64,000 nt of DNA from Auanema rhodensis (taxonomy: Eukaryota > Animalia > Nematoda), in NCBI GenBank assembly GCA_964057225.1, contig OZ059896.1:12338001-12402000 (forward strand), read 5' to 3'. The stretch's first letter is position 1. Each line of letters begins with the position of its first letter. Below are positions 2,666 through 48,971 of the stretch, one piece after another. The notes beneath the pieces are model-generated. The model saw only the letters and a program-made list of their open reading frames with translations, did no database searches and was not told where the DNA came from. The position numbers and the translations under genes are program-made.

Positions 2666-2759
2666 TACCTGTGACTCAGATAGGTTAATGAGGTTTGTGA
2701 AAATGAAATGATAACAAAAATTCTATTTTGTATCCTTGTCCCAAAACACTGGCGAACTA

Positions 2760-6955: not shown

Positions 6956-7049
6956 TACCTGTGACTCAGATAGGTTAATGAGGTTTGTGAAAATGAAATG
7001 ATAACAAAAATTCTATTTTGTATCCTTGTCCCAAAACACTGGCGAACTA

Positions 7050-8465
7050 TTGACTTTATTGACATGAACAGATAACCAAAAAATTTTAAACTTTCAAAAA
7101 ATCATAAAAAATATTTTCCGAACAAAAATAAAAAAGTTTATCGTAAAAACAATACTTTGAACTATCAAGAAACTAAAAAAAATACTTAATATTGTGTCCC
7201 ATGCCCTCTAGCTTCAATCACCGCTTTGCATCTTCGTGGCATTGATGCAACTAGTTTTTCCAGAAGTCTTCGTGGCAATTTATTCCAGGTTTCCCTCAGG
7301 ATCTTCATTTTTTCAACCGGTTTCTTGCAGTTCGTTCCTCTGACCCTCCACTCCAATATCGACCACAAATTTTTAATCGGGTTGAGGTCAGGGCTCTGTG
7401 AAGGCCACTTCATCAGCGTCACCCCGTTACTAGCCATCCACTCCTTGGCAACACGTGACGTGTGTTTTGGGTCGTTATCCTGCTGATAGATGAAGCCTCT
7501 ACGGAATTTTGAGCGAGCGTATGGATACATTACATTCTCCAGAAGGTTTCTGTACCCATATTGATCCATGGTTCCTTCAATTTGGTGCAAGGGACCAACT
7601 TCAGATGACGTGAAGGCTCCCCACACCATCACTGAGCCTCCACCAAACTTGGTGGTGCCAGTGGTGTATCTTCTATGGTACCTGAAACCAGTGGGACGTC
7701 CGACTCTCCTAGCTCCACCATTCCCAGCCAACATGAACTTGCACTTGAACCTGAACTTTCATCCGTCCAGATGCATTTCTTTCATTGCTCCGGGGTCCAG
7801 TTTACGTGCTCCTTAGCAAATTCCAGACGCTTTTTGACGTTCCTCTTAGAAAGTAGAGGTTTTTTGGCCGAGGAGTGGGAACGTGACCCTTGTGCCAACA
7901 ACCTGGTACAAATTGTCCTAGCGGAGCAAACGTTGGGCTTCAGCAACTTCAGCTCTTCACGGATTTCCTGAGACGTCGTGAAGGGATTAATGACAGCTAA
8001 CCTTCTTATCACTCTGTCTTCTCGTTCTGTGGTAGATCTTGGTCTTCCTTGATTCTGCAGTCTTCCGTCATCTCCAGAATGTCCTTTCCTGACGATATCT
8101 CCTACTGTAGACTTTGGGACACCCAGAAGACGTCCAACAGCACCTTGGGTCATGCCAGATGCATGTGCTTGTAGAATTGATTTTCTTAGATCTTCAGAAA
8201 CAAAAAAACCCCTTGTCATGTTTTAAAATGATAAAGTAAGGTTTTGTCTACAATTCAGCAAAATAATTATCAAAGTTCATGCTCCCTAACTCAAGATATA
8301 AATATGTAAATTTAGTCCGAATATGGACGTCAGATATTTTTTCATAACTTCCTTCCCATCGATACTTTGAGATTGAAACTGAAAATTCTAAAAGCCTGAA
8401 CTATTACAAACTACATTATCCTGAAAATTAAATTTGTTGCCACTTCAAATATTATAAGAAAAAAA
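7050..8465 (-). mobile_element. Tc1-family transposon B, duplicate copy
   Basis: ORFs 7186-7734 and 7782-8219 are identical to the first copy. Confidence 0.9.
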
Positions 8466-10268
8466 AGGCAATCGCCCGCAACATATTCTCCCCCCTCTGC
8501 GAAACAAGCGAAGTTAAGCATCAAAACAAAGTCAATAACAATACATAGCCCAAAACACCGCGGCATAAAACAATTTACCAATCCCAAATCACATAAAAAA
8601 ACAAAGACACAAAAAACAGATATCGTCGAAAGAAAAACTTTAGAAAAAAATTATCCCGAGCGCTAAACCTATTTCTAAAAACGTAGCAAGCAAAGAAAGA
8701 TCAACAAAAATACAAGAAGGACACCCAACCAACACCATACCGAATACAATTAATCTAATCAATCCCTAAATAGCGGAACACCAGACAACGAAAGCATATG
8801 TAGTTAGCATAGAAAACAAAACGCTGAGACCAGGAGAAACAAGAACGCTCACGCTAGAAGTACACGATCCATAAAGCTGTGAACAGGCGTTTCTAGATTG
8901 TAAGAAACCAGGCAACAAACTTTTTTTCACGCCTACTATATTTACGCCCACTGGATACGGAGTACAAATTTACGCGACGAACATTTGCGAACAGCCACTC
9001 GAGATTCAAATGAATCAAGAAATAGGGATAGCAGAAGCGATACCAAAGGACAAACAAGATAAATACGAAGGACAATACATACCTCCGGAAGCTCGATGGG
9101 AAGAACAACTGCCATATTTCCCAGATAATTTTATCAATGAGCTTGACCTTTCAGAAGCCTGTTTCTCGCAAATCGAACAACAGCAACTGAAAGAAATGAT
9201 TTTACTACATAAACAAGCGTTTCTCAACGAAGATAGAAATATCGGACTCTTCCTAGAACCAATCGAACACTCCATTCCAATTATGCCAAGAAAAACACCT
9301 TCGTTTAAAATAACTTATCGAATACCACTCTCCCAACAAGAAGAAGTGGAGAAACAAATGGAAGAAATGCTCGGGCAAGGAATCATTGAGCCATAAAATT
9401 TAATGACAACTAGTCCAGTAATTTTGGTAAAGAAGAAAGACAAAACTTACAGATTTGTAACGGACTTTCGAGCTCTGAATGCAATCACTCAGAAACAAGT
9501 ATATGTTATATCAAACATACAAGTCATCCTAGACTTGGCCGCTGGAGCAAGGATCTTCAGCAACTTTGATCTAGTATCCGGATTTTTCCAAATACCCCTC
9601 AAGAAAGAAGATCGTCATCTTCCAGCTTTCACAACAACAAGCGGAACTTACCAATATTCAGCACATTTAAAAGATATTGAAGAAATTTTGAAAGCAGTTA
9701 CTCAAATAGGATTGAAAATAAAACTGAAAAAATGCGCATTCGCAAGAAAGAAAGTAAAATTTCTAGGATACATAGTTGGACAAGAAGGAATTAAACCGGA
9801 CCCACATCAAATCAAGGCAATACGAGATTATCCTCAACGAAAATCAACAAAAGGAGTAAGAGCTTTCATGGGAGTAGTAAACTACTTTAGAAGGTTCATA
9901 AAGAATGCTGCAGGAATAGCAACACCACTATACAACCTCACTCGGAAAGACACTCCATTCAAATGGACAGAAAAAGAAGAAATTACTTTTAATACTTTGA
10001 AGAAAACATTAACTCAAGCACTTGTGTTACAAGCACCAATCCTGAAACAACCATATGTTATTGAAAGTGATGGAAGTATGATAGCAGTTGGCGCCGTACT
10101 ACTTCAAGCGAAAGACGATCAAGAACCATTACATCCAATAGCTTTTGCTTGTCGGAAACTCAACAAAGCCGAAAGGAATTATCCACCAAAGAGGTAGAAG
10201 CATTAGCTCTTACATTCACCGTCAAACAATTTTGCACCTACATACTAGGAACAGCAACCAAAATTGAC
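8466..10268 (+). pseudogene. Ty3/Gypsy pol fragment (PR-RT linker, RT with deleted catalytic core, start of RNase H)
   Basis: YRIP, SPVILVKKKD..YRFVTDFRALN, DLVSGFFQIP, KVKFLGY, VRAFMGVVNYFRRFI, ESDGSMIAVGAVLLQ. GTYQY joins directly to HLKDI, so the MPFG..YxDD segment is absent. Contains stops. Confidence 0.92.
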
Positions 10269-10520: not shown

Positions 10521-11290
10521 CAGGGTGGCGCTTAAGTATGTTCGCAAAAATTAAAGTGCAAATTTTTCAAATAGTTGACCTTATATTCCAAAACAAACAA
10601 AATATTAATATTAAAAACATCCAAATAAAGATTTAAAATTGAAAAAAAAGTTATTTAAATATTATATTCCTTGACAATATGAAGCCTTCGCCTCATAGAC
10701 CCTCCATCGCCAGACTTCATGATCTGGGCTATCGTGCCTGTGATATTGCTAAGCAGCTGAATTTCAACCGAAGAACAGTTGAGAAGATCATCAAGCAATA
10801 CAGAGAAAGAGCAAGTGTTGAACCTCTTAAAAAAACAGGAAGACCACGAACAATCAACGTTCCGAAGATGAGAAAGATCATTAAGAAGAGGATTCAAAGG
10901 AATAACGAGCTCAGTCTCAACAAATTGAGTTCAAGCCTCAACATCTTAAGAAACTGTTCAACGGATCGTCAAAAATGAGTTGGAGCTTCACAGTTATCGC
11001 CTCACTCGCTCACATCATCTGACTGAGAATGCCATGAAGAACAGGCTGGAAAAAGCTAAGAAGCTGCTTCACGAAATCAAAGAGGGCCGCTTGATCAACG
11101 TGTTATGGACTGATGAGAAAATTTTTACTGTTGAGCCATGTGAAAATCCACAAAACCACCGTCAACTTTTGAAGCAGAATCAGAATAAAAGAGGAGATGT
11201 TAAAATAGTTGGAAGAAAACTATTCAGTTCTTTGGTGATGGTTTGGGCCGGTGTTACAATGGAGAAGAAGACACCTCTGATTTTCATCTA
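10521..11290 (+). mobile_element. Tc1/mariner-superfamily transposon (maT/DD37D-like), 3'-truncated
   Basis: Starts CAGGGTGG after a TA run. HTH, GRPRT, WTDEKIFTVE, QNHR, VMVWAGV..KTPLIFI, then breaks off. Confidence 0.75.
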
Positions 11291-11922
11291 TTTTTCCTTT
11301 TCCAATAATGGTGTTTCCTGTTAACTTAACCTTATAATTTGCAGTGTTGATGGCAAATATTGTGAGTGGTGAAGTCTTGATAGCAGTAGGTGTGAATTGA
11401 ATAGGTCCATTTCCACATCGTATAAGAGCGTATTGTTTTGGTTGTAATTCTTTTGCCAATTGTAGACAAATCATAGCTTTACTTTTGGGTGGAATAATTG
11501 ATTCTCTAATGTTTATAATTGACACGGTGTCTGAACTGATGCGAAAACTCTTTTGGTTAGCGGGTAATAATGGTAGAAAATGGTTTCCAACTAGTAATTG
11601 TTTGCGTAAAGCTTGTAGAGAAGTTGTTATTCCTTTTTCTTCTAATGCTTTCATGATGTCCACACCAAGTAACATTTCAGTAGGAAAATTTTTATCCTCA
11701 TAGATAAAAAATGTGTGTCAAAGATGGTATCCAGCAATAACGATATCCAATGTTATTGTACCCAGAAAGTTGAATATTGATCCATTTGCTGTGGTGACAG
11801 AGATTTTAGTTGAGTTGAAATTCTCTTTTCCTAAATAGCGTACTGATGATTTCTTTAAATTCCTTTCCTTTCGATTCCTTTCCTGCTCTGCTATCCCATA
11901 AAGCTACGAGTTTTGTTATTTT
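11290..11922 (-). pseudogene. Gypsy aspartic protease and downstream linker fragment
   Basis: VALWDSRA (degenerate DSG), TTANGSIFNFLG and MLLGVDIM retropepsin motifs. Confidence 0.8.
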
Positions 11923-11949
11923 GATAAGTGTTATTTGGAAACACCCGTC

Positions 11950-12480
11950 CGTGATGACGGGTGTTTCCAAATAACACTTATCTTTGTTTGTGTGGTTGCG
12001 ATAAATGTAGAGTGGTTCTATTGGTTGACTGGTTGAAACCCGAATAAGATTTCGCCCAATAATTCGAGCAACTATATCATCTCGTTGCATAATAGATCTG
12101 ATAGCAATTGTAGGATTAATGTTAAATATAGCTTGCCATGTCTTAATAAGTTCCAGTTGAGCATGACATATGCTGTGATGCTGATGATGAAATTTTTCGA
12201 CCAGTATGGTTCTCATTCGTTCGAATACATAGTTGAGCTTGTTGATGGTAGTTAATGCATCTCGATGTCGGAGTATAGTATTCTGGTGATCAGTTAAGTG
12301 AGTGCCGAATAATTCTTGAGCTTTCTCTATGCTTCCAATCATGGGTTGCATTGATGTCATCCCTTGAATAGTACTAATTGTTTCTTTTGTAGTAGATGAT
12401 GTATTTACAACAGGTTTTGAGGTAGCACTAAGAAATCGTGCAGTTGGCGTAGTTTTAGTGTTGATAGCTTCGACTACCAT
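11950..12480 (-). pseudogene. C-terminal half fragment of a class-III-like viral fusion glycoprotein (env)
   Basis: Thr/Ser-rich stretch, long heptad helix, then NPTIAIRSIMQRDDIVARIIG..RV...N...KCYLETPV. This pattern resembles gB/mononegavirus-like class III glycoproteins found in invertebrate retroelements. Confidence 0.65.
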
Positions 12481-12593
12481 TTTTCAGAGTCAACTGATTA
12501 TGGAAGAGTGATGTAAAAATCATCGACAAACCACCACTTGATACGTGTTCACTATTGCAAATGAAATTATTTGCATTTTAGGTACATGTACAA

Positions 12594-14941: not shown

Positions 14942-14949
14942 ATGTACAA

Positions 14950-16783
14950 GTGGTTGATTAAGGTTTTCAGCTTCAAACTACCAGTCAGACAACTGTAATA
15001 GGTGCTACCCAATGCGTTAAAACAACCCTCATAAAGCATACACTCGTGGCCATAAATTCTCGGCAGGTGGTGCCTCGACGAAAAAAAAATATATTTATAT
15101 CTTGAGTTAGGGAGCATGAACTTTGATAATTATTTCGCTGAATTGTAGACAAAACCTTACTTTATCATTTTAGAACATGACAAGGGTTTTTCTTGTTTCT
15201 GAAGATCTAAGAAAATCAGTTCTACAATCACATGCATCTGGCATGACCCAAGTTGCTGTTGGACGTCTTCTGGGTGTCCCAAGGTCTACAGTAGGAGATA
15301 TCGTCAGGAAAGGACATTCTAGAGATGACGGAAGACTACAGAATCAAGGAAGACCAAGATATACCACAGAACGAGAAAACAATGTGATAAGAAGGTTGGC
15401 TGTCATTAATCCCTTCACGACGTCTCAGGAAATCCGTGAATAGCTGAAGTTGCTAAAGCCCAACGTTTGCTCCGCTAGGACAATCCGTACCAGGTTGTTC
15501 GCACAAGGGTTACGTTCCCACTCCTCGGCCAAAAAACCTCTACTTTCTATGAGGAACGTCAAAAAGCGTCTGGAATTCGCTATGGAGCACGTGAACTGGA
15601 CCCAGGAGCAATGGAAGAAATGCATCTGGACGGATGAATGCAAGTTCATGTTGGCTGGGAATGGTGGAGCAAGGAGAGTCAGACGTCCCACTGGCTTCTG
15701 GTACATAGAAGATACACGACTGGCACCACCAAGTTTGGTGAAGGCACAGTGATGGTGTGGGGAGCCTTCACGTCATCTGAAGTTGGTCCCTTGCGCCAAA
15801 TATCCCAAAATTTTGTAGAGGATTTATCTATCAGCAGGATAACGACCCAAAACACACGTCACGTGTTGCCAAGGAGTGGATGGCTAGTAACGGGGTGACG
15901 CTGATGAACTGGCCTCCACAGAGCCCTGACCTCAACCCGATTGAAAATTTGTGCTCGATATTGAAGTGAAGGGTCAGAGGAACGAACTGCAAGAAAATGG
16001 ATGAAAAAATGAAGATCCTGAGGGAAACCTGGAAGAAATTGCCACGAAGACTTCTGGAAAAACTAGTTGCATCAATGCCACAAAGATGCAAAGCGGTGAT
16101 TGAAGCTAGAGGACATGGGAAACGATATTAAGTATTTTTTTAGTTTCTTAATAGTTCAAAGTATTGTTTTTACTATTTTTATTCGGAAAATATTTTTTAT
16201 GATTTTTTGAAATTTTAAAATTTTTTGGTTATCTGTTCATATTCCATAAATCATTCTAATGAAAATTTTGGACTTAAAACGTGGAGAAAACCTATTGAAG
16301 TTGGAGAATAAAGTTCAAAACAGTTAAATGAAGTAGATTAAACTCGAATAATTGTGAAAGTTTTGGGGGTGCCGAGAATTTATAGCCACGAGTGAAAATA
16401 CTGAAAAGTTTTTCAACGTCCCCATTGATAGAATATTCTGGTTCAGTCAATATGTGTCATCGTCAGGTGTACCAATAAATGATGAGCGTTTAATAATTAT
16501 TCAAGAGCCGCCTGATCCTGATTTAAAAGACGAACAAAAGGGAGTAAATACTAGTGCTGGATGATTTGAACTTTTTTTCATCGAATAAAGCAGCAAAGGA
16601 ATTACTCAACAACATTTTCACAGTATCGGCTCATCACTGGGCGTATGATGGTGCAATGCCTACTCCCATCATTCATTTACTGATTGACAATCATCCTTTG
16701 ACAAGTGAGAAGCAGCGTATACTATCTGATATAACAGCGGAGAACCCTATTGTTTATATAGCCAGAAATGTGTTTAGTGTTTA
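14950..16783 (+). pseudogene. Maverick packaging ATPase remnant interrupted by Tc1-B (repeated in each array unit)
   Basis: GATQCVKTT upstream of the Tc1; LVLDDL, NNIFTVSAHH and HLLIDNHP downstream. Matches the uninterrupted copy at 47392-47910. Confidence 0.8.
15041..16394 (+). mobile_element. Tc1-family transposon B with both TIRs, defective
   Basis: TIRs CACTCGTGGC(C/T)ATAAATTCTCGGCA, left TA. Stop at 15441, frameshifts and an internal deletion. Confidence 0.95.
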
Positions 16784-16884
16784 AAGTGCATGTTCAATGA
16801 GTGGTCGTATTTTGTCAATTTTCAACTTTTTGTCTTCTTGCGCCAAAACTCCTTGTTCTGTTTCCTCATTTTCTTCCGCACAAA

Positions 16885-17020
16885 AGGATCAGGTGGAAAA
16901 ACTTGTCAGTATTTTTACATATACGTTTTATAAGGGGAGTTTTACCACATTGCGTAGCCCTTATTACAGTTGTCTGACTGGGTAGTGTGAAGCTGAAAAC
17001 CATAATGAACCACTTGTAAA
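16885..17020 (-). pseudogene. Second, inverted Maverick ATPase N-terminal fragment
   Basis: The reverse strand reads GATQCGKTPLIKRICKNTDKFF (intact Walker A). Confidence 0.75.
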
Positions 17021-17078
17021 TGTACCTATAATGCAAATGATTTTATTTATACTAGTGTGCATCAGGTGGTGGTCTGTG

Positions 17079-17592
17079 ATGGATGATTTTTACATTACTT
17101 TGCCGTCACCAGTTGACTTTGAAAAAAGTAATACCTCATCAGTGTTTCTTACCAGGTTACCTGAAACATTAAGGCTACGCAATAAGAGATATTTCATTGG
17201 GCTGACAGACATAATTTTTCCTTGTTCGATATTAAACGTCCGAGAAAATCTTTCTTATACACTACGTTTTTCTAACAGAAAGTTTATTCTGCACTTGCCC
17301 AAAGGCAACTATGCAAATGATGATGAAATAATAAGCGGAATCAATGCTGGAAAAGAACAATTCATCGCTAGCAGCACTAAATCTCTTGGAGCTGAGGAAG
17401 AAGCACGTATAAAGGGTTTGATTGATAAGGATAAGGATGTGAAAAAGTGGTATAATAATCGCCACAAGTAAGCGGCTATTATTGAATGCAACACTCGGTG
17501 ATGCTCTCGCTTATTTTCTTGGCTTTGAGAATAAAATTATCAACGATACGTTAATAGCCATGCGCCCCATTGATTTTTCAAATAACATTAAT

Positions 17593-17626
<34 letters not shown>

Positions 17627-17706
17627 GATATTGTAGAATATTCCATTCTCGGTAATGTGAAAGCCAACTTACTTGCATGTTTACCTGTACCGCCTCCCAC
17701 TGAATT
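17079..17706 (+). pseudogene. Maverick minor capsid (penton), truncated (also ~21668-22287 and ~26249-26868)
   Basis: MDDFYITLPS..NTSSVFLTRLP..L.L..Y.IGLTDIIFP and YIYCDIVE, typical Polinton penton motifs. Confidence 0.8.
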
Positions 17707-17729
17707 TTTAATTGCGCCATTTCTGAGCG

Positions 17730-19410
17730 AAATGGCGCAATTAAAGACGGATTTGTTGATCGTTTAAAGCGTTGGCGTGAAGAATCCATGTGATTATTCA
17801 GATAACTTGTCAGATCCTATAGAGAATATGCCTGCGGATAATCAATAAACGAGACTAGAGTCTCAGTAGTGGATTCAAAAATTGGTGAAGAAAAACAAGA
17901 TTGAGTTGAAGTAGGTGCCGAGGTGTTGCCTAACACAAATGCTGTTTCTAGACTTGATATTAGCAGTGTTTGATCTCCAAGTATTCTATATAAAGGTCCC
18001 ATACGTGTGTATTGACATGGTTCGGAGTGTGCGCGGTTTCCAAACTACTGAACCATCTCCAAATGTACAGCTTCCCATTTGAGCTTCACAGCCTACAGCG
18101 TTGCCAATTAAGTCAGATACAATAGTATTGTCCTTTAAATTTGTAATAACTCCTTGCTCCATCACAAATTGAGTTAGGTTGGCACATTGAGTAAAACTGA
18201 AGGAACGTTCCGGCTCATATACTGGCTTAGGAGTTTCATATGTAAGTGGATTAGGGCTCAACAGTTTTTTATTTTTCCATTTCTTGTCTCGAGCAGCCAT
18301 ACAGCATTCTTCCACAGATACATATCCATTACCAATAATGGTGTCATTGCTTTCTCGGAACCAAAATTGATCCGTTACACAGAATCGATAGATGCGTGTA
18401 TAACATTTCCACGCTTCCCATGTTACGACGGTTTGTTTAGGTATAAAGAATTTAATGTTAACTTGATGAGCTTGTTGAATTGCTTTTCGTTGGCATCCTG
18501 TTATCTCTGGTGGTGTTATCAAAATTCCTCCTTTGTGAGCGAAACATAATTGGTATGAAGCATTCACAGTTGGAAGAAAAAATGTGCAGATTATTGTTGT
18601 GAGCATGAATGGTAATGCAATAGTATTTATATTGAATTGAGGTTTCCATCGTCTTTGATTGTCTTGATTCTCTTTTGGATACTTGTCTCTATTTTCTCTT
18701 GGACAGTTGTCTCTATTTTCTCTTGGACAGTTGTCTCTATTTTCTCTTAGGTAGTTGTCTCCTCAAGATTCTCTTGGATAGTTGTTGCGATTATTCCTAG
18801 AAAAGTTGTCCCGATTTTCTCTTGGATAATTGTTGCGAGGTTCTCTCGTATGATGATGACTCTCCATTGAGTAGTTGTTTCCATAATTTTGTCGAGGGCC
18901 AGAATTCCTGTTGAACTTATTTTTGAAACTCTTCCAAGGATTTCTTGAATTGTTGCCATTGTTCCGTTCAAAATCTCGTGGCTGTTGATGGCTTCTTTGG
19001 TTCCTAATTTTGTTCATGGTGATCTTCTGAACTGCAGAAATCAACTCTTGCATGGTAGAGTTTTCTTCATGCTGTTTCCTATAATTAGCACGAATTGCTT
19101 CTTCAAAACGTGCTGTTCTCTTGGCTTCCTCATAAGTTTTTGGGTCTTTTCCTTGAACAATTATGCCTGAATCGGCATTCAATCTATTTAAGAAAGCTGA
19201 TCTTAATATGAGCTCTCTTTCTCAATCGGTAGGGTTGTGAAACGAGTTCCTTCCAAGGCCCTCGTTCACGAATTTCCGAATAAATGGAGTTACATGCCGA
19301 GATGGCACAATCATTTTGTTGGAGCAGTAGAGGAAGGAGAAAAATTCTTTCGATTACCGAAAGTCCAGCAGCGTTTGCGAATCGGTTGAATATATCGATG
19401 TAAGATTGCA
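17730..19410 (-). pseudogene. Gypsy gag fused in frame to a class-III-like env N-terminal half
   Basis: Gag (SYIDIFNRFANAAGL; DPKTYEEAKRTARFEE; N/R-rich repeats) continues past one TGA, in frame, into a signal-peptide-like MLTTIICTFFLPTVNA. This is followed by a Cys-rich ectodomain (AWKC..C..VSVEEC..C..GC...GSC.....VVWKP) and a later RFKR furin-like site. Confidence 0.75.
18684..18850 (-). repeat. 24-bp coding tandem repeat (NCPRENRD / NYPRENRD)
   Basis: Repeated tctctattttctcttggacagttg units in the gag tail; present in each array unit. Confidence 0.85.
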
Positions 19411-19629
19411 AGCTTCGACTACCATTTTTCAGAGTCAACTGATTATGGAAGAGTGATGTAAAAATCATCGACAAACCACCACTTGATACGTGTATACTAT
19501 TGCAAATGAAATTATTTGCATTTTAGGTACATGTACAAGTGGTTGATTAAGGTTTTCAGCTTCAAACTACCAGTCAGACAACTGTAATAGGTGCTACCCA
19601 ATGCGTTAAAACAACCCTCATAAAGCATA

Positions 19630-20983
19630 CACTCGTGGCCATAAATTCTCGGCAGGTGGTGCCTCGACGAAAAAAAAAAATATTTATATCTTGAGTTAGG
19701 GAGCATGAATTTTGATAATTATTTCGCTGAATTGTAGACAAAACCTTACTTTATCATTTAAGAACATGACAAGGGTTTTTTTTGTTTCTGAAGATCTAAG
19801 AAAATCAGTTCTACAATCACATGCATCTGGCATGACCCAAGTTGCTGTTGGACGTCTTCTGGGTGTCCCAAGGTCTACAGTAGGAGATATCGTCAGGAAA
19901 GGACATTCTAGAGATGACGGAAGACTACAGAATCAAGGAAGACCAAGATATACCACAGAACGAGAAAACAATGTGATAAGAAGGTTGGCTGTCATTAATC
20001 CCTTCACGACGTCTCAGGAAATCCGTGAATAGCTGAAGTTGCTAAAGCCCAACGTTTGCTCCGCTAGGACAATCCGTACCAGGTTGTTCGCACAAGGGTT
20101 ACGTTCCCACTCCTCGGCCAAAAAACCTCTACTTTCTATGAGGAACGTCAAAAAGCGTCTGGAATTCGCTATGGAGCACGTGAACTGGACCCAGGAGCAA
20201 TGGAAGAAATGCATCTGGACGGATGAATGCAAGTTCATGTTGGCTGGGAATGGTGGAGCAAGGAGAGTCAGACGTCCCACTGGCTTCTGGTACATAGAAG
20301 ATACACGACTGGCACCACCAAGTTTGGTGAAGGCACAGTGATGGTGTGGGGAGCCTTCACGTCATCTGAAGTTGGTCCCTTGCGCCAAATATCCCAAAAT
20401 TTTGTAGAGGATTTATCTATCAGCAGGATAACGACCCAAAACACACGTCACGTGTTGCCAAGGAGTGGATGGCTAGTAACGGGGTGACGCTGATGAACTG
20501 GCCTCCACAGAGCCCTGACCTCAACCCGATTGAAAATTTGTGCTCGATATTGAAGTGAAGGGTCAGAGGAACGAACTGCAAGAAAATGGATGAAAAAATG
20601 AAGATCCTGAGGGAAACCTGGAAGAAATTGCCACGAAGACTTCTGGAAAAACTAGTTGCATCAATGCCACAAAGATGCAAAGCGGTGATTGAAGCTAGAG
20701 GACATGGGAAACGATATTAAGTATTTTTTTAGTTTCTTAATAGTTCAAAGTATTGTTTTTACTATTTTTATTCGGAAAATATTTTTTATGATTTTTTGAA
20801 ATTTTAAAATTTTTTGGTTATCTGTTCATATTCCATAAATCATTCTAATGAAAATTTTGGACTTAAAACGTGGAGAAAACCTATTGAAGTTGGAGAATAA
20901 AGTTCAAAACAGTTAAATGAAGTAGATTAAACTCGAATAATTGTGAAAGTTTTGGGGGTGCCGAGAATTTATAGCCACGAGTG
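19630..20983 (+). mobile_element. Tc1-B, array copy 2
   Basis: Same TIRs and lesions as 15041-16394. Confidence 0.95.
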
Positions 20984-22310
20984 AAAATACTGAAAAGTTT
21001 TTCAACGTCCCCATTGATAGAATATTCTGGTTCAGTCAATATGTGTCATCGTCAGGTGTACCAATAAATGATGAGCGTTTAATAATTATTCAAGAGCCGC
21101 CTGATCCTGATTTAAAAGACGAACAAAAGGGAGTAAATACTAGTGCTGGATGATTTGAACTTTTTTTCATCGAATAAAGCAGCAAAGGAATTACTCAACA
21201 ACATTTTCACAGTATCGGCTCATCACTGGGCGTATGATGGTGCAATGCCTACTCCCATCATTCATTTACTGATTGACAATCATCCTTTGACAAGTGAGAA
21301 GCAGCGTATACTATCTGATATAACAGCGGAGAACCCTATTGTTTATATAGCCAGAAATGTGTTTAGTGTTTAAAGTGCATGTTCAATGAGTGGTCGTATT
21401 TTGTCAATTTTCAACTTTTTGTCTTCTTGCGCCAAAACTCCTTGTTCTGTTTCCTCATTTTCTTCCGCACAAAAGGATCAGGTGGAAAAACTTGTCAGTA
21501 TTTTTACATATACGTTTTATAAGGGGAGTTTTACCACATTGCGTAGCCCTTATTACAGTTGTCTGACTGGGTAGTGTGAAGCTGAAAACCATAATGAACC
21601 ACTTGTAAATGTACCTATAATGCAAATGATTTTATTTATACTAGTGTGCATCAGGTGGTGGTCTGTGATGGATGATTTTTACATTACTTTGCCGTCACCA
21701 GTTGACTTTGAAAAAAGTAATACCTCATCAGTGTTTCTTACCAGGTTACCTGAAACATTAAGGCTACGAAATAATAGATATTTCATTGGGCTGACAGACA
21801 TAATTTTTCCTTGTTCGATATTAAACGTCCGAGAAAATCTTTCTTATACACTACGTTTTTCTAACAGAAAGTTTATTCTGCACTTGCCCAAAGGCAACTA
21901 TGCAAATGATGATGAAATAATAAGCGGAATCAATGCTGGAAAAGAACAATTCATCGCTAGCAGCACTAAATCTCTTGGAGCTGAGGAAGAAGCACGTATA
22001 AAGGGTTTGATTGATAAGGATAAGGATGTGAAAAAGTGGTATAATAATCGCCACAAGTAAGCGGCTATTATTGAATGCAACACTCGGTGATGCTCTCGCT
22101 TATTTTCTTGGCTTTGAGAATAAAATTATCAACGATACGTTAATAGCCATGCGCCCCATTGATTTTTCAAATAACATTAATACAATATATATATATATAT
22201 ATATTGTGATATTGTAGAATATTCCATTCTCGGTAATGTGAAAGCCAACTTACTTGCATGTTTACCTGTACCGCCTCCCACTGAATTTTTAATTGCGCCA
22301 TTTCTGAGCG

Positions 22311-23991
22311 AAATGGCGCAATTAAAGACGGATTTGTTGATCGTTTAAAGCGTTGGCGTGAAGAATCCATGTGATTATTCAGATAACTTGTCAGATCCTA
22401 TAGAGAATATGCCTGCGGATAATCAATAAACGAGACTAGAGTCTCAGTAGTGGATTCAAAAATTGGTGAAGAAAAACAAGATTGAGTTGAAGTAGGTGCC
22501 GAGGTGTTGCCTAACACAAATGCTGTTTCTAGACTTGATATTAGCAGTGTTTGATCTCCAAGTATTCTATATAAAGGTCCCATACGTGTGTATTGACATG
22601 GTTCGGAGTGTGCGCGGTTTCCAAACTACTGAACCATCTCCAAATGTACAGCTTCCCATTTGAGCTTCACAGCCTACAGCGTTGCCAATTAAGTCAGATA
22701 CAATAGTATTGTCCTTTAAATTTGTAATAACTCCTTGCTCCATCACAAATTGAGTTAGGTTGGCACATTGAGTAAAACTGAAGGAACGTTCCGGCTCATA
22801 TACTGGCTTAGGAGTTTCATATGTAAGTGGATTAGGGCTCAACAGTTTTTTATTTTTCCATTTCTTGTCTCGAGCAGCCATACAGCATTCTTCCACAGAT
22901 ACATATCCATTACCAATAATGGTGTCATTGCTTTCTCGGAACCAAAATTGATCCGTTACACAGAATCGATAGATGCGTGTATAACATTTCCACGCTTCCC
23001 ATGTTACGACGGTTTGTTTAGGTATAAAGAATTTAATGTTAACTTGATGAGCTTGTTGAATTGCTTTTCGTTGGCATCCTGTTATCTCTGGTGGTGTTAT
23101 CAAAATTCCTCCTTTGTGAGCGAAACATAATTGGTATGAAGCATTCACAGTTGGAAGAAAAAATGTGCAGATTATTGTTGTGAGCATGAATGGTAATGCA
23201 ATAGTATTTATATTGAATTGAGGTTTCCATCGTCTTTGATTGTCTTGATTCTCTTTTGGATACTTGTCTCTATTTTCTCTTGGACAGTTGTCTCTATTTT
23301 CTCTTGGACAGTTGTCTCTATTTTCTCTTAGGTAGTTGTCTCCTCAAGATTCTCTTGGATAGTTGTTGCGATTATTCCTAGAAAAGTTGTCCCGATTTTC
23401 TCTTGGATAATTGTTGCGAGGTTCTCTCGTATGATGATGACTCTCCATTGAGTAGTTGTTTCCATAATTTTGTCGAGGGCCAGAATTCCTGTTGAACTTA
23501 TTTTTGAAACTCTTCCAAGGATTTCTTGAATTGTTGCCATTGTTCCGTTCAAAATCTCGTGGCTGTTGATGGCTTCTTTGGTTCCTAATTTTGTTCATGG
23601 TGATCTTCTGAACTGCAGAAATCAACTCTTGCATGGTAGAGTTTTCTTCATGCTGTTTCCTATAATTAGCACGAATTGCTTCTTCAAAACGTGCTGTTCT
23701 CTTGGCTTCCTCATAAGTTTTTGGGTCTTTTCCTTGAACAATTATGCCTGAATCGGCATTCAATCTATTTAAGAAAGCTGATCTTAATATGAGCTCTCTT
23801 TCTCAATCGGTAGGGTTGTGAAACGAGTTCCTTCCAAGGCCCTCGTTCACGAATTTCCGAATAAATGGAGTTACATGCCGAGATGGCACAATCATTTTGT
23901 TGGAGCAGTAGAGGAAGGAGAAAAATTCTTTCGATTACCGAAAGTCCAGCAGCGTTTGCGAATCGGTTGAATATATCGATGTAAGATTGCA
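22311..23991 (-). pseudogene. Gypsy gag-env fragment, array copy 2
   Basis: ORFs identical to those in 17730-19410. Confidence 0.75.
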
Positions 23992-24210
23992 AGCTTCGAC
24001 TACCATTTTTCAGAGTCAACTGATTATGGAAGAGTGATGTAAAAATCATCGACAAACCACCACTTGATACGTGTATACTATTGCAAATGAAATTATTTGC
24101 ATTTTAGGTACATGTACAAGTGGTTGATTAAGGTTTTCAGCTTCAAACTACCAGTCAGACAACTGTAATAGGTGCTACCCAATGCGTTAAAACAACCCTC
24201 ATAAAGCATA

Positions 24211-25564
24211 CACTCGTGGCCATAAATTCTCGGCAGGTGGTGCCTCGACGAAAAAAAAAAATATTTATATCTTGAGTTAGGGAGCATGAATTTTGATAAT
24301 TATTTCGCTGAATTGTAGACAAAACCTTACTTTATCATTTAAGAACATGACAAGGGTTTTTTTTGTTTCTGAAGATCTAAGAAAATCAGTTCTACAATCA
24401 CATGCATCTGGCATGACCCAAGTTGCTGTTGGACGTCTTCTGGGTGTCCCAAGGTCTACAGTAGGAGATATCGTCAGGAAAGGACATTCTAGAGATGACG
24501 GAAGACTACAGAATCAAGGAAGACCAAGATATACCACAGAACGAGAAAACAATGTGATAAGAAGGTTGGCTGTCATTAATCCCTTCACGACGTCTCAGGA
24601 AATCCGTGAATAGCTGAAGTTGCTAAAGCCCAACGTTTGCTCCGCTAGGACAATCCGTACCAGGTTGTTCGCACAAGGGTTACGTTCCCACTCCTCGGCC
24701 AAAAAACCTCTACTTTCTATGAGGAACGTCAAAAAGCGTCTGGAATTCGCTATGGAGCACGTGAACTGGACCCAGGAGCAATGGAAGAAATGCATCTGGA
24801 CGGATGAATGCAAGTTCATGTTGGCTGGGAATGGTGGAGCAAGGAGAGTCAGACGTCCCACTGGCTTCTGGTACATAGAAGATACACGACTGGCACCACC
24901 AAGTTTGGTGAAGGCACAGTGATGGTGTGGGGAGCCTTCACGTCATCTGAAGTTGGTCCCTTGCGCCAAATATCCCAAAATTTTGTAGAGGATTTATCTA
25001 TCAGCAGGATAACGACCCAAAACACACGTCACGTGTTGCCAAGGAGTGGATGGCTAGTAACGGGGTGACGCTGATGAACTGGCCTCCACAGAGCCCTGAC
25101 CTCAACCCGATTGAAAATTTGTGCTCGATATTGAAGTGAAGGGTCAGAGGAACGAACTGCAAGAAAATGGATGAAAAAATGAAGATCCTGAGGGAAACCT
25201 GGAAGAAATTGCCACGAAGACTTCTGGAAAAACTAGTTGCATCAATGCCACAAAGATGCAAAGCGGTGATTGAAGCTAGAGGACATGGGAAACGATATTA
25301 AGTATTTTTTTAGTTTCTTAATAGTTCAAAGTATTGTTTTTACTATTTTTATTCGGAAAATATTTTTTATGATTTTTTGAAATTTTAAAATTTTTTGGTT
25401 ATCTGTTCATATTCCATAAATCATTCTAATGAAAATTTTGGACTTAAAACGTGGAGAAAACCTATTGAAGTTGGAGAATAAAGTTCAAAACAGTTAAATG
25501 AAGTAGATTAAACTCGAATAATTGTGAAAGTTTTGGGGGTGCCGAGAATTTATAGCCACGAGTG
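24211..25564 (+). mobile_element. Tc1-B, array copy 3
   Basis: Same TIRs and lesions. Confidence 0.95.
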
Positions 25565-26891
25565 AAAATACTGAAAAGTTTTTCAACGTCCCCATTGATA
25601 GAATATTCTGGTTCAGTCAATATGTGTCATCGTCAGGTGTACCAATAAATGATGAGCGTTTAATAATTATTCAAGAGCCGCCTGATCCTGATTTAAAAGA
25701 CGAACAAAAGGGAGTAAATACTAGTGCTGGATGATTTGAACTTTTTTTCATCGAATAAAGCAGCAAAGGAATTACTCAACAACATTTTCACAGTATCGGC
25801 TCATCACTGGGCGTATGATGGTGCAATGCCTACTCCCATCATTCATTTACTGATTGACAATCATCCTTTGACAAGTGAGAAGCAGCGTATACTATCTGAT
25901 ATAACAGCGGAGAACCCTATTGTTTATATAGCCAGAAATGTGTTTAGTGTTTAAAGTGCATGTTCAATGAGTGGTCGTATTTTGTCAATTTTCAACTTTT
26001 TGTCTTCTTGCGCCAAAACTCCTTGTTCTGTTTCCTCATTTTCTTCCGCACAAAAGGATCAGGTGGAAAAACTTGTCAGTATTTTTACATATACGTTTTA
26101 TAAGGGGAGTTTTACCACATTGCGTAGCCCTTATTACAGTTGTCTGACTGGGTAGTGTGAAGCTGAAAACCATAATGAACCACTTGTAAATGTACCTATA
26201 ATGCAAATGATTTTATTTATACTAGTGTGCATCAGGTGGTGGTCTGTGATGGATGATTTTTACATTACTTTGCCGTCACCAGTTGACTTTGAAAAAAGTA
26301 ATACCTCATCAGTGTTTCTTACCAGGTTACCTGAAACATTAAGGCTACGAAATAATAGATATTTCATTGGGCTGACAGACATAATTTTTCCTTGTTCGAT
26401 ATTAAACGTCCGAGAAAATCTTTCTTATACACTACGTTTTTCTAACAGAAAGTTTATTCTGCACTTGCCCAAAGGCAACTATGCAAATGATGATGAAATA
26501 ATAAGCGGAATCAATGCTGGAAAAGAACAATTCATCGCTAGCAGCACTAAATCTCTTGGAGCTGAGGAAGAAGCACGTATAAAGGGTTTGATTGATAAGG
26601 ATAAGGATGTGAAAAAGTGGTATAATAATCGCCACAAGTAAGCGGCTATTATTGAATGCAACACTCGGTGATGCTCTCGCTTATTTTCTTGGCTTTGAGA
26701 ATAAAATTATCAACGATACGTTAATAGCCATGCGCCCCATTGATTTTTCAAATAACATTAATACAATATATATATATATATATATTGTGATATTGTAGAA
26801 TATTCCATTCTCGGTAATGTGAAAGCCAACTTACTTGCATGTTTACCTGTACCGCCTCCCACTGAATTTTTAATTGCGCCATTTCTGAGCG

Positions 26892-28572
26892 AAATGGCGC
26901 AATTAAAGACGGATTTGTTGATCGTTTAAAGCGTTGGCGTGAAGAATCCATGTGATTATTCAGATAACTTGTCAGATCCTATAGAGAATATGCCTGCGGA
27001 TAATCAATAAACGAGACTAGAGTCTCAGTAGTGGATTCAAAAATTGGTGAAGAAAAACAAGATTGAGTTGAAGTAGGTGCCGAGGTGTTGCCTAACACAA
27101 ATGCTGTTTCTAGACTTGATATTAGCAGTGTTTGATCTCCAAGTATTCTATATAAAGGTCCCATACGTGTGTATTGACATGGTTCGGAGTGTGCGCGGTT
27201 TCCAAACTACTGAACCATCTCCAAATGTACAGCTTCCCATTTGAGCTTCACAGCCTACAGCGTTGCCAATTAAGTCAGATACAATAGTATTGTCCTTTAA
27301 ATTTGTAATAACTCCTTGCTCCATCACAAATTGAGTTAGGTTGGCACATTGAGTAAAACTGAAGGAACGTTCCGGCTCATATACTGGCTTAGGAGTTTCA
27401 TATGTAAGTGGATTAGGGCTCAACAGTTTTTTATTTTTCCATTTCTTGTCTCGAGCAGCCATACAGCATTCTTCCACAGATACATATCCATTACCAATAA
27501 TGGTGTCATTGCTTTCTCGGAACCAAAATTGATCCGTTACACAGAATCGATAGATGCGTGTATAACATTTCCACGCTTCCCATGTTACGACGGTTTGTTT
27601 AGGTATAAAGAATTTAATGTTAACTTGATGAGCTTGTTGAATTGCTTTTCGTTGGCATCCTGTTATCTCTGGTGGTGTTATCAAAATTCCTCCTTTGTGA
27701 GCGAAACATAATTGGTATGAAGCATTCACAGTTGGAAGAAAAAATGTGCAGATTATTGTTGTGAGCATGAATGGTAATGCAATAGTATTTATATTGAATT
27801 GAGGTTTCCATCGTCTTTGATTGTCTTGATTCTCTTTTGGATACTTGTCTCTATTTTCTCTTGGACAGTTGTCTCTATTTTCTCTTGGACAGTTGTCTCT
27901 ATTTTCTCTTAGGTAGTTGTCTCCTCAAGATTCTCTTGGATAGTTGTTGCGATTATTCCTAGAAAAGTTGTCCCGATTTTCTCTTGGATAATTGTTGCGA
28001 GGTTCTCTCGTATGATGATGACTCTCCATTGAGTAGTTGTTTCCATAATTTTGTCGAGGGCCAGAATTCCTGTTGAACTTATTTTTGAAACTCTTCCAAG
28101 GATTTCTTGAATTGTTGCCATTGTTCCGTTCAAAATCTCGTGGCTGTTGATGGCTTCTTTGGTTCCTAATTTTGTTCATGGTGATCTTCTGAACTGCAGA
28201 AATCAACTCTTGCATGGTAGAGTTTTCTTCATGCTGTTTCCTATAATTAGCACGAATTGCTTCTTCAAAACGTGCTGTTCTCTTGGCTTCCTCATAAGTT
28301 TTTGGGTCTTTTCCTTGAACAATTATGCCTGAATCGGCATTCAATCTATTTAAGAAAGCTGATCTTAATATGAGCTCTCTTTCTCAATCGGTAGGGTTGT
28401 GAAACGAGTTCCTTCCAAGGCCCTCGTTCACGAATTTCCGAATAAATGGAGTTACATGCCGAGATGGCACAATCATTTTGTTGGAGCAGTAGAGGAAGGA
28501 GAAAAATTCTTTCGATTACCGAAAGTCCAGCAGCGTTTGCGAATCGGTTGAATATATCGATGTAAGATTGCA
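26892..28572 (-). pseudogene. Gypsy gag-env fragment, array copy 3
   Basis: Identical ORFs. Confidence 0.75.
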
Positions 28573-28791
28573 AGCTTCGACTACCATTTTTCAGAGTCAA
28601 CTGATTATGGAAGAGTGATGTAAAAATCATCGACAAACCACCACTTGATACGTGTATACTATTGCAAATGAAATTATTTGCATTTTAGGTACATGTACAA
28701 GTGGTTGATTAAGGTTTTCAGCTTCAAACTACCAGTCAGACAACTGTAATAGGTGCTACCCAATGCGTTAAAACAACCCTCATAAAGCATA

Positions 28792-30145
28792 CACTCGTGG
28801 CCATAAATTCTCGGCAGGTGGTGCCTCGACGAAAAAAAAAAATATTTATATCTTGAGTTAGGGAGCATGAATTTTGATAATTATTTCGCTGAATTGTAGA
28901 CAAAACCTTACTTTATCATTTAAGAACATGACAAGGGTTTTTTTTGTTTCTGAAGATCTAAGAAAATCAGTTCTACAATCACATGCATCTGGCATGACCC
29001 AAGTTGCTGTTGGACGTCTTCTGGGTGTCCCAAGGTCTACAGTAGGAGATATCGTCAGGAAAGGACATTCTAGAGATGACGGAAGACTACAGAATCAAGG
29101 AAGACCAAGATATACCACAGAACGAGAAAACAATGTGATAAGAAGGTTGGCTGTCATTAATCCCTTCACGACGTCTCAGGAAATCCGTGAATAGCTGAAG
29201 TTGCTAAAGCCCAACGTTTGCTCCGCTAGGACAATCCGTACCAGGTTGTTCGCACAAGGGTTACGTTCCCACTCCTCGGCCAAAAAACCTCTACTTTCTA
29301 TGAGGAACGTCAAAAAGCGTCTGGAATTCGCTATGGAGCACGTGAACTGGACCCAGGAGCAATGGAAGAAATGCATCTGGACGGATGAATGCAAGTTCAT
29401 GTTGGCTGGGAATGGTGGAGCAAGGAGAGTCAGACGTCCCACTGGCTTCTGGTACATAGAAGATACACGACTGGCACCACCAAGTTTGGTGAAGGCACAG
29501 TGATGGTGTGGGGAGCCTTCACGTCATCTGAAGTTGGTCCCTTGCGCCAAATATCCCAAAATTTTGTAGAGGATTTATCTATCAGCAGGATAACGACCCA
29601 AAACACACGTCACGTGTTGCCAAGGAGTGGATGGCTAGTAACGGGGTGACGCTGATGAACTGGCCTCCACAGAGCCCTGACCTCAACCCGATTGAAAATT
29701 TGTGCTCGATATTGAAGTGAAGGGTCAGAGGAACGAACTGCAAGAAAATGGATGAAAAAATGAAGATCCTGAGGGAAACCTGGAAGAAATTGCCACGAAG
29801 ACTTCTGGAAAAACTAGTTGCATCAATGCCACAAAGATGCAAAGCGGTGATTGAAGCTAGAGGACATGGGAAACGATATTAAGTATTTTTTTAGTTTCTT
29901 AATAGTTCAAAGTATTGTTTTTACTATTTTTATTCGGAAAATATTTTTTATGATTTTTTGAAATTTTAAAATTTTTTGGTTATCTGTTCATATTCCATAA
30001 ATCATTCTAATGAAAATTTTGGACTTAAAACGTGGAGAAAACCTATTGAAGTTGGAGAATAAAGTTCAAAACAGTTAAATGAAGTAGATTAAACTCGAAT
30101 AATTGTGAAAGTTTTGGGGGTGCCGAGAATTTATAGCCACGAGTG
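28792..30145 (+). mobile_element. Tc1-B, array copy 4
   Basis: Same TIRs and lesions. Confidence 0.95.
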
Positions 30146-30829
30146 AAAATACTGAAAAGTTTTTCAACGTCCCCATTGATAGAATATTCTGGTTCAGTCA
30201 ATATGTGTCATCGTCAGGTGTACCAATAAATGATGAGCGTTTAATAATTATTCAAGAGCCGCCTGATCCTGATTTAAAAGACGAACAAAAGGGAGTAAAT
30301 ACTAGTGCTGGATGATTTGAACTTTTTTTCATCGAATAAAGCAGCAAAGGAATTACTCAACAACATTTTCACAGTATCGGCTCATCACTGGGCGTATGAT
30401 GGTGCAATGCCTACTCCCATCATTCATTTACTGATTGACAATCATCCTTTGACAAGTGAGAAGCAGCGTATACTATCTGATATAACAGCGGAGAACCCTA
30501 TTGTTTATATAGCCAGAAATGTGTTTAGTGTTTAAAGTGCATGTTCAATGAGTGGTCGTATTTTGTCAATTTTCAACTTTTTGTCTTCTTGCGCCAAAAC
30601 TCCTTGTTCTGTTTCCTCATTTTCTTCCGCACAAAAGGATCAGGTGGAAAAACTTGTCAGTATTTTTACATATACGTTTTATAAGGGGAGTTTTACCACA
30701 TTGCGTAGCCCTTATTACAGTTGTCTGACTGGGTAGTGTGAAGCTGAAAACCATAATGAACCACTTGTAAATGTACCTATAATGCAAATGATTTTATTTA
30801 TACTAGTGTGCATCAGGTGGTGGTCTGTG

Positions 30830-31617
30830 ATGGATGATTTTTACATTACTTTGCCGTCACCAGTTGACTTTGAAAAAAGTAATACCTCATCAGTGTTTCT
30901 TACCAGGTTACCTGAAACATTAAGGCTACGCAATAAGAGATATTTCATTGGGCTGACAGACATAATTTTTCCTTGTTCGATATTAAACGTCCGAGAAAAT
31001 CTTTCTTATACACTACGTTTTTCTAACAGAAAGTTTATTCTGCACTTGCCCAAAGGCAACTATGCAAATGATGATGAAATAATAAGCGGAATCAATGCTG
31101 GAAAAGAACAATTCATCGCTAGCAGCACTAAATCTCTTGGAGCTGAGGAAGAAGCACGTATAAAGGGTTTGATTGATAAGGATAAGGATGTGAAAAAGTG
31201 GTATAATAATCGCCACAAGTAAGCGGCTATTATTGAATGCAACACTCGGTGATGCTCTCGCTTATTTTCTTGGCTTTGAGAATAAAATTATCAACGATAC
31301 GTTAATAGCCATGCGCCCCATTGATTTTTCAAATAACATTAATACAATATATATATATATATATATATATATTGTGATATTGTAGAATATTCCATTCTCG
31401 GTAATGTGAAAGCCAACTTACTTGCATGTTTACCTGTACCGCCTCCCACTGAATTTGGTAAAATGATTGTCAAAACATTTAATCCTATTCGTTATGTACC
31501 AATCACTAAGCAAACACTCGATACTATACGTATTGAAATTTTAGATAAATTTGGTCCCCTATGCAATTTAATTATGGTTCTATAGTTGTTACATTACATG
31601 TTAAAATTGTGAAATAA
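30830..31617 (+). pseudogene. Maverick penton with both termini, internally deleted
   Basis: Runs from MDDFYITLPS to MQFNYGSIVVTLHVKIVK*. Stop at 31220 and a deletion relative to 46511-47320. Confidence 0.82.
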
Positions 31618-45320: not shown

Positions 45321-45321
45321 T

Positions 45322-46480: not shown

Positions 46481-46510
46481 GTGGTATTATATAACTGTTG
46501 AATAAAACGT

Positions 46511-47320: not shown

Positions 47321-47391
47321 TCGACAAACCACCACTTGATACGTGTACACTATTGCAAATGAAATTATTTGCATTTTAGGAACATTTACAA

Positions 47392-47910: not shown

Positions 47911-47945
47911 CCAGAAATGTGTTTAGTGTTTAAAGTGCATATTCA

Positions 47946-48959: not shown

Positions 48960-48971
48960 ATTATGGAAATC

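What the first reader, a model, noticed from the sequence alone, without database searches (positions are those of the whole stretch)
17730..19410. Gypsy-type endogenous virus with gag fused in frame to a class-III-like fusogen (gag-env-pol order)
Seen: the gag ORF (18763-19182) and the glycoprotein ORF (17986-18606) share a frame, 52 codons apart, separated only by one TGA inside a repeat (probably CGA>TGA). The read-through is ..RENRDKYPKENQDNQRRWKPQFNINTIALPF-MLTTIICTFFLPTVNASYQLC.., so the signal-peptide-like segment is internal to a polyprotein. An RFKR furin-like site follows. In the related piece at 11290-12480 the env C-terminal half lies directly upstream of the aspartic protease. Knowledge: env normally follows pol. 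I recall gag-env-pol metaviruses being reported in nematodes and rotifers, so the layout is rare rather than certainly new. Inference: a single Gag-Env-Pro-Pol polyprotein with a class III fusogen, raising an unusual membrane-topology and processing problem.
Basis: partly seen in the sequence, partly recalled or inferred. Interest (0 to 1): 0.78.

Follow-up and report, generated by a model that had tools for sequence, protein, structure and literature searches.

The report
Broken nematode gag-env-pol retroelement fragment
This is a broken piece of a retrovirus-like jumping gene, likely of a nematode worm, that carries a protein predicted to fold like herpesvirus membrane-fusion proteins directly behind its capsid gene; the unusual gene order is real but already published for nematodes, flatworms and bryozoans.

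Summary
The layout is real, the copy is dead and the kind is known. Gag and a glycoprotein share one frame, with one stop 52 codons before the env ATG. The env piece models as a class III fusogen (pLDDT 84.7; Z 10.8, rmsd 3.3 A over 133 residues to HSV gB). Of 57 relatives, 27 carry gag upstream in the same protein, 9 of these also RT downstream; 5 are BEL/Pao. Contigs from 3 of 4 runs join this piece to the one at 12467-11948 with 870 nt between, so both come from one family. Corrections: the copy has several more breaks and no LTR; RFKR is in another frame; env touches the protease at 11.9 kb only because the membrane anchor was deleted; rotifers are not supported. GAG-ENV-POL Ty3/gypsy elements with gB-type env are published (PMC13524379; 36 nematode entries), and this scan noted the layout before on other DNA. 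Likely mechanism: a two-pass membrane polyprotein with Gag and Pol both cytosolic. New, decayed member of a known kind; interest 0.2.

The parts
19235..19425 (-). gag, N-terminal part of the capsid domain; 5' end missing; in a different frame from the rest of gag
   Evidence: gag profile from 12 relatives, positions 19-76 of 194, E 0.0016 among 1524 window peptides; pairwise alone weak, E 0.071; related contigs match up to 19425
18763..19234 (-). gag, C-terminal capsid part and Arg/Asn-rich tail, ending at the in-frame stop (18765-18763)
   Evidence: gag profile positions 128-189, E 9e-5; no Pfam gag hit alone; tblastn of relatives
18647..18846 (-). tract of 24-nt-based repeats across the gag tail, holding the stop
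18559..18624 (-). internal hydrophobic segment, likely signal sequence; a signal-peptidase-type site is read by eye at its end
   Evidence: hydropathy scan; same segment in 13 of 14 relatives with a Pfam gag hit; no signal-peptide predictor was available
17989..18558 (-). env N-terminal part, predicted class III fusion domain (gB domain I region)
   Evidence: model pLDDT 84.7; Foldseek E 1.3e-6 to HSV gB; top 11 rows of the wide search are all class III
17746..18020 (-). env continuation after a frameshift, with a stop at 17819 and RFKR at 17771-17760
17707..17745 (.). perfect 17-bp fold-back at the breakpoint where env stops and Maverick-like DNA begins
   Evidence: related contigs leave the window at 17717
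11948..12467 (-). second piece: env Ser/Thr linker, central helix and start of the crown; no transmembrane anchor
   Evidence: Pfam PF24664 E 3e-5 and PF00606 E 2e-4, both under the curated cut-offs; joined to 17717 in contigs of 3 of 4 runs with 870 nt between
11923..11982 (.). perfect 27-bp fold-back at the env/protease deletion junction
11288..11920 (-). aspartic protease and following spacer, broken by an insert near the active site and a stop
   Evidence: tblastn 29% to the protease region of Caenorhabditis gag-env-pol polyproteins, E 2e-23; no Pfam protease hit alone
19411..19538 (-). junction of a likely Maverick minor-capsid 5' stub with gag; 98% identical to 12466-12593, including about 15 nt of gag
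12466..12593 (-). the same junction in front of the second piece
16893..17707 (+). likely Maverick/Polinton minor-capsid (penton) remnant, high-copy repeat, cut at 17707
   Evidence: Atlas look-alikes 0.95-0.96 to unnamed, mostly viral clusters incl. Preplasmiviricota; no Pfam hit; the penton label is recalled from its motif
22289..24006 (-). second tandem copy of the gag-env fragment
   Evidence: 0 differences over the 1703 nt compared
26870..28587 (-). third tandem copy of the gag-env fragment
   Evidence: 0 differences over the 1703 nt compared

Best explanation
This is a truncated, multiply broken copy of a Ty3/gypsy-type LTR retroelement with the gene order gag-env-pro(-pol), likely from a nematode, whose env is predicted to be a herpesvirus-gB-like class III fusogen and whose intact relatives encode all parts in one polyprotein. 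History (inferred): one copy became joined by a deletion to a Maverick-like minor-capsid stub; that chimera was duplicated; one daughter kept gag and the first half of env (later triplicated in a 4581-bp tandem unit), the other kept mid-env and protease. This locus makes no working product. [quoted passage not shown] Signal peptidase would free the env N-terminus, furin would cut at RxKR, and the element's own protease would release Gag and Pol at sites on the cytosolic side of both membrane segments. Gag and Pol start tethered to the same membrane as env, which would favour budding of enveloped particles.
For: Shown: frame and stop; gag identity; class III fold of the window's own protein and of a full relative (Foldseek E 7.5e-18 to HSV gB, low TM-scores 0.2-0.35 because domain positions differ); family profile hits gB in its middle, Arc/PNMA capsids at its start and Ddi1 protease at its end. 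27 of 57 env relatives have gag upstream in one record, 9 also RT downstream; 13 of 120 pol-search records read gag<env<RT, none env after RT. Env tree: starred clade (98/96) of 12 rows with Auanema, Caenorhabditis and Diploscapter proteins, no BEL/Pao row. Contigs join the two window pieces, and one X9 contig runs from the gag tail through both env pieces. Topology: internal hydrophobic segment in 13 of 14 gag-bearing relatives and a transmembrane-like segment before protease/RT in 17 of 17 pol-bearing ones. A [VI][NH]x[IVL] motif lies within 45 residues before the signal in 13 of 29 relatives and in the window, against 12% of random windows and 4% in ectodomains.
Against: No single contig bridges env to the protease in this family; they lie on different contigs of similar depth. 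No RT is physically linked to this env. No LTR, primer site or full copy could be examined because no genome is held. Many named relatives are gene models that may be spliced; continuity rests on unnamed records whose ORF fills most of a short contig (for example 2338 aa on 7928 nt, 2486 aa on 8161 nt). The cleavage motif was chosen after looking at these sequences, related rows are not independent, and 16 of 29 lack it. 26 of 57 hits were unresolved by Pfam, and gypsy and BEL/Pao envs are intermixed elsewhere in the tree. Topology, cleavage and fusion are untested.
Confidence: 0.9

Rival explanations
1. The glycoprotein is a Maverick fusogen (MFUS-1 type) and its contact with gag and protease is a rearrangement accident, since both pieces abut Maverick-like DNA.
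For: Both pieces start behind a Maverick-like stub and one ends at another; nematode Mavericks carry a gB-like fusogen (10.1101/2022.07.12.499685, passages); both env ends are fold-back scars.
Against: Gag and env align to single relatives in one frame; family contigs run gag tail to env without Maverick DNA and leave the window exactly at the Maverick junctions, 17717 and 19425; nearest envs are gag-fused.
Confidence: 0.02
2. The stop is a regulated read-through site: Gag is made in excess and Gag-Env-Pol by suppression, so this family differs from single-ORF relatives.
For: A single ORF gives Gag, Env and Pol in equal amounts, whereas retroelements usually need excess Gag (established knowledge); the stop lies just before the signal segment, and all three tandem copies share it.
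Against: The three copies are one recent duplication; the copy carries several other breaks; a related contig (X9) crosses the boundary with a shorter repeat tract that lacks this unit and differs by a multiple of three; 27 of 57 relatives read through without a stop.
Confidence: 0.04
3. The env belongs to a BEL/Pao element (env after integrase) and was placed next to gypsy gag locally.
For: 5 of 57 relatives are BEL/Pao polyproteins with env after integrase; a BEL/Pao element lies at 34-40 kb of the window.
Against: The window's env falls in a starred clade without BEL/Pao rows; the local BEL/Pao carries a phlebovirus-type env instead (PF07245 E 2e-12); the upstream ORF is gypsy-type gag.
Confidence: 0.02
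4. The triplicated fragment has been kept by the host, as a small-RNA template or a truncated Gag that restrains the active family.
For: Three identical copies; own-copy contigs run at about 2-3 times flank depth in X2 and X4, which fits a real triplication; the region is a mosaic of transposon fragments.
Against: No start context, conservation or expression was shown; tandem duplication also affects unrelated parts of the window (288-8741).
Confidence: 0.05

Closest known systems
GAG-ENV-POL Ty3/gypsy 'errantiviruses' with HSV/gB-type ENV in Nematoda, Bryozoa and Platyhelminthes (Chary and Hayashi, eLife 2026, PMC13524379; 36 Nematoda rows in Supplementary file 1)
   Same: Gene order, gB-type env flanked by a signal peptide or second membrane segment and a transmembrane domain, Ty3/gypsy gag and protease; six host species of my hits also appear in their table (C. 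brenneri, C. remanei, C. nigoni, A. avenae, M. enterolobii, P. davidi).
   Different: Their entries are intact, many with LTRs; this copy is a truncated pseudogene. It is only 22-36% identical to its env relatives, so it is a distinct family. I did not match it to a table row by sequence.
Non-canonical nematode ERVs (Sacco et al. 2022, J Gen Virol, PMID 35550022); text not held; seen only as cited in PMC13524379; the name NERV and the 'continuous gag-env-pro-pol ORF' are recalled
   Same: Nematode metavirus with env before pol and a glycoprotein resembling RNA-virus G proteins; my model also matches nyamivirus and rhabdo-like glycoproteins.
   Different: Membership of their RT clade and their extra ORFs could not be tested.
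Atlas virus and other nematode Belpaoviridae (PMC9094657, passages)
   Same: One long polyprotein that includes env, in a nematode LTR element.
   Different: BEL/Pao, order Gag-Pol-Env, class II phlebovirus-like env.
MFUS-1 of nematode Mavericks (10.1101/2022.07.12.499685, passages)
   Same: gB-like class III fold in a nematode mobile element (their Z 11.1 to HSV gB).
   Different: A stand-alone gene with an N-terminal signal peptide in a DNA transposon; here env is fused behind gag.

Membership tests
[quoted passage not shown] | env lies between gag and pol | tested here: met
   gag-env in frame; env then protease in the sister piece; contigs join the pieces; 19 of 120 pol-search records env before RT, 0 after
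[quoted passage not shown] | env has the gB-type class III fold | tested here: met
   window protein; family
[quoted passage not shown] | Ty3/gypsy-type gag and protease | tested here: met
   gag profile; protease region best matches gag-env-pol polyproteins
[quoted passage not shown] | Ty3/gypsy RT-RNase H-integrase linked behind env | tested here: inconclusive
   no RT is attached to this copy; unlinked pol pieces at 8.7-10.2 kb and 55.7-57.7 kb best match the same group of relatives
[quoted passage not shown] | flanking LTRs and tRNA primer site | tested here: inconclusive
   both ends are cut inside coding sequence; no genome held
[quoted passage not shown] | nematode host | tested here: inconclusive
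Intact errantivirus in the sense of PMC13524379 | uninterrupted gag, env and pol without large truncation | tested here: not met
   stops, frameshifts, deletions and truncation in this copy; it is filed as a decayed copy, not as an intact element
Sacco 2022 nematode ERV clade | one continuous gag-env-pro-pol ORF (recalled) | tested here: inconclusive
   met by relatives (9 of 57 and 13 of 120 records); not shown for this family end to end
Sacco 2022 nematode ERV clade | RT falls in their clade | not testable with these tools
   paper and sequences not held; no linked RT
Belpaoviridae with env | Pao-type gag/protease and env after integrase | tested here: not met
Maverick fusogen MFUS-1 | stand-alone fusogen gene with N-terminal signal peptide inside a Maverick | tested here: not met
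   fused behind gag in the window and in family contigs; no direct sequence comparison with MFUS-1

The most novel reading that the evidence does not exclude
This nematode lineage still carries a multi-copy, coding-intact gag-env-pro-pol family (contigs 93-96% identical to the window pieces, about ten times flank depth) that buds enveloped, infectious particles from one two-pass membrane polyprotein, cut by signal peptidase, furin and its own protease at conserved [VI]Nx[IVL] sites on the cytosolic side of both membrane segments: a flavivirus-like way of building a retrovirus, with Gag, Env and Pol made one-to-one.
Probability: 0.3. Interest if true: 0.55.

Novelty: new member of a known kind. 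Interest (0 to 1): 0.2.

Why it matters
As a discovery it matters little: the layout and the fusogen class are in print and this copy is dead. What remains open is the family's cell biology. PMC13524379 (Discussion) says the transmission and entry mechanisms of gB-type elements are unknown, and its main text has no occurrence of 'polyprotein' or 'single ORF'. The two-pass topology and candidate protease sites set out here are a testable model for how an envelope protein in the middle of a Gag-Pol polyprotein is processed.

Tried and rejected
No genome is held, so the search for a full-length copy with LTRs could not be run. Word-index protein searches with each env piece found nothing (limited to 2000 residues); the exhaustive search did. 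Pfam does not recognise the env N-piece, the gag piece or the protease piece alone. The ESM Atlas gave a borderline lead only (0.90 to a PF24664 cluster). A metagenome scan for DNA around one relative found nothing and the alignment was too divergent for a viral-contig scan, so no relative's LTRs were seen. No RNA holder was listed; that says nothing on expression. The RT piece at 8.7-10.2 kb faces the protease piece but overlaps it in protein position without similarity, so it is another family and was not used as this element's RT. The RNase H-integrase tree (FastTree, 69 rows) concerns the unlinked piece at 55.7 kb only. Two short hits (P0047, P0056) were left out of the env tree. Sacco 2022 is not held; searches for 'gag-env-pro-pol' and for NERVs/Meloidogyne/Metaviridae found 0 papers. 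A name search in the eLife supplements returned nothing, and I did not read its sequence or tree supplements. No tRNA gene in the window. No complex prediction was run.

Full report
Observation. On the minus strand the ORF 19221-18763 and the ORF 18762-17986 are in one frame; reading TGA as X shows one stop between 19221 and 17988, 52 codons before the ATG at 18606. The stop is inside a tract of 24-nt-based repeats. The hydrophobic segment is internal. The RFKR at 17771-17760 is in another frame, behind a frameshift near 18020 and a stop at 17819. The whole fragment is present three times, 4581 bp apart, with 0 differences in 1703 nt. No genome is held.

The upstream ORF is gag. Pfam alone does not show it, but a profile from the gag regions of 12 relatives finds two stretches in two frames, positions 19-76 (E 0.0016) and 128-189 (E 9e-5) of 194, among 1524 window peptides; the only other hit under E 1 was the BEL/Pao gag at 34 kb. 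Related contigs have about 130 more letters at 19234/19235 and match only up to 19425. So gag is cut at its 5' end and broken inside; there is no LTR.

The downstream ORF is a class III fusogen. An exhaustive search gave 57 relatives at E up to 0.001, 21-36% identical. Folded with 39 of them, the window's own 206 residues gave pLDDT 84.7. Foldseek returned herpesvirus gB in every PDB row shown (best E 1.3e-6) and rhabdo-, nyami-, chu-like and herpes glycoproteins in the viral library. Against 48,161 chains the top 11 rows were all class III: HSV gB Z 10.8 (rmsd 3.3, 133 aligned), HCMV gB, Chandipura G, thogotovirus Gp, baculovirus GP64, rabies G; the first unrelated row had Z 3.7. A natural relative with the full env gave E 7.5e-18 to HSV gB, with low global TM-scores. 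The family profile matches gB in the middle, Arc/PNMA capsids at the start and Ddi1 protease at the end.

Order of genes in relatives. All 57 were scanned (26, 31). 27 have gypsy-type gag upstream of env in the same record and 9 of these also RT downstream; 12 of the 27 trained the gag profile and match by construction. Five are BEL/Pao with env after integrase, which is against a simple reading; the rest are fragments. Of 120 records listed for an unlinked pol piece of the window, 19 have env before RT, 13 read gag<env<RT, none has env after RT. Of the 20 looked up, the 7 with names are from Auanema, Caenorhabditis, Diploscapter and Aphelenchus. In an env tree of 56 rows the window lies in a starred clade (98/96) of 12 with these nematode proteins and no BEL/Pao; its branch is long (1.33) and elsewhere gypsy and BEL/Pao envs mix.

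The two window pieces come from one family. Both begin behind the same 128-nt junction (98% identical), which includes about 15 nt of gag. In 3 of 4 runs a single contig joins 17717 to 12467 with 870 nt between; in X9 the same contig also covers the gag tail, with a shorter repeat tract. These contigs are 93-96% identical to the window. They continue 656 nt past 11948, where the window jumps to the protease; relatives have about 260 residues there, including the transmembrane helix. So the env-protease contact at 11.9 kb is a deletion scar, though the order it shows is the family's. The protease lies on other contigs of similar depth (62.5 vs 63.4, 52.5 vs 59.6, 136 vs 140); no contig bridges env to protease. 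Family contigs run at about ten times flank depth and the window's own copy at 2-3 times; the tool warns that depth is not copy number. Both env ends carry perfect fold-backs of 17 and 27 bp. The flanks are a high-depth repeat that likely derives from a Maverick minor capsid (label recalled); family contigs leave the window exactly at these junctions, so the chimera is local.

Mechanism. This locus is non-functional. For intact members the anatomy gives a two-pass membrane polyprotein: an internal hydrophobic segment before env in 13 of 14 records with a Pfam gag hit and a transmembrane-like segment before protease or RT in 17 of 17 pol-bearing records (my hydropathy scan). By the established rules of signal and stop-transfer sequences, Gag and Pol both face the cytosol, as capsid and envelope are arranged in flavivirus and alphavirus polyproteins (own knowledge). 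An RxR/KR site follows the fusion domain in many but not all relatives; PMC13524379 also says the furin site is not always conserved. A [VI][NH]x[IVL] motif precedes the signal in the window and in 13 of 29 relatives (background 12%, ectodomain 4%, 0 of 4 BEL/Pao) and occurs in 9 of 16 spacers before the protease; reading it as the element's protease site rests on recall, and the motif was chosen after inspection. Equal amounts of Gag, Env and Pol remain unexplained; splicing or turnover could supply excess Gag.

What is known. Chary and Hayashi (PMC13524379; I read the abstract, passages, section 14, the first parts of sections 5, 6 and 9, and all 36 Nematoda rows of Supplementary file 1) report that elements in Nematoda, Bryozoa and Platyhelminthes carry only HSV/gB-type env, arranged GAG-ENV-POL, with the ectodomain flanked by a signal peptide or second membrane segment and a transmembrane domain. 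They credit Sacco et al. 2022 with the nematode order; that paper is not held, and its continuous-ORF claim is my recall. Rodriguez et al. 2017 (PMC5408684, passages) place rotifer env after pol. Atlas (PMC9094657, passages) is a single Gag-Pol-Env polyprotein with a class II env. Maverick MFUS-1 (10.1101/2022.07.12.499685 and 10.1101/2023.08.22.554363, passages) is a stand-alone gB-like gene. Other eLife supplements that I did not read may list this family. Two earlier notes of this scan describe the same layout in other genomes; none matched this sequence.

Verdict. Observation partly confirmed, interpretation supported, novelty low: a decayed, triplicated fragment of a new family in a published group. 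Interest 0.2.

Noticed in passing
window:17707-17745 and window:11923-11982: Both env breakpoints end in perfect fold-back hairpins (17 bp with 5-nt loop; 27 bp with 6-nt loop), which look like templated inserts left by end-joining repair (reading from own knowledge).
   Followed up: partly
window:33979-40397: Broken BEL/Pao element with a phlebovirus-type class II env after integrase (PF07245 E 2e-12), an Atlas/Cer-like element; so the window holds retroelements with both class II and class III envs.
   Followed up: partly
window:54768-57706: RNase H-integrase piece of another gag-env-pol family (45-46% to Caenorhabditis polyproteins), with the integrase end duplicated in inverted orientation at the centre of a perfect 4642-bp inverted repeat (51048-55689 / 56785-61426).
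   Followed up: partly
window:8749-10250: RT-RNase H piece with an internal deletion, of a third family in the same group (57% to an Auanema protein).
   Followed up: partly
window:31362-33511 and 40131-49742: Maverick/Polinton remnants: likely capsid, polymerase, minor-capsid pieces (labels recalled, no Pfam hit) and an integrase (rve E 1e-6). The minor-capsid region is a very high-depth repeat in the runs.
   Followed up: partly
window:288-8741 and 14942-31456: Two recent tandem duplications (4290-bp unit twice; 4581-bp unit about 3.6 times, over 99.7% identical), plus Tc1/mariner-like pieces at 15039-16391 and 10643-11324.
   Followed up: no
P0015, P0027, P0029, P0031, P0039: BEL/Pao polyproteins carry the same env family after integrase and do not form one group in the env tree (3 changes, not forced by starred branches), which hints at env exchange between gypsy and BEL/Pao elements.
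   Followed up: partly
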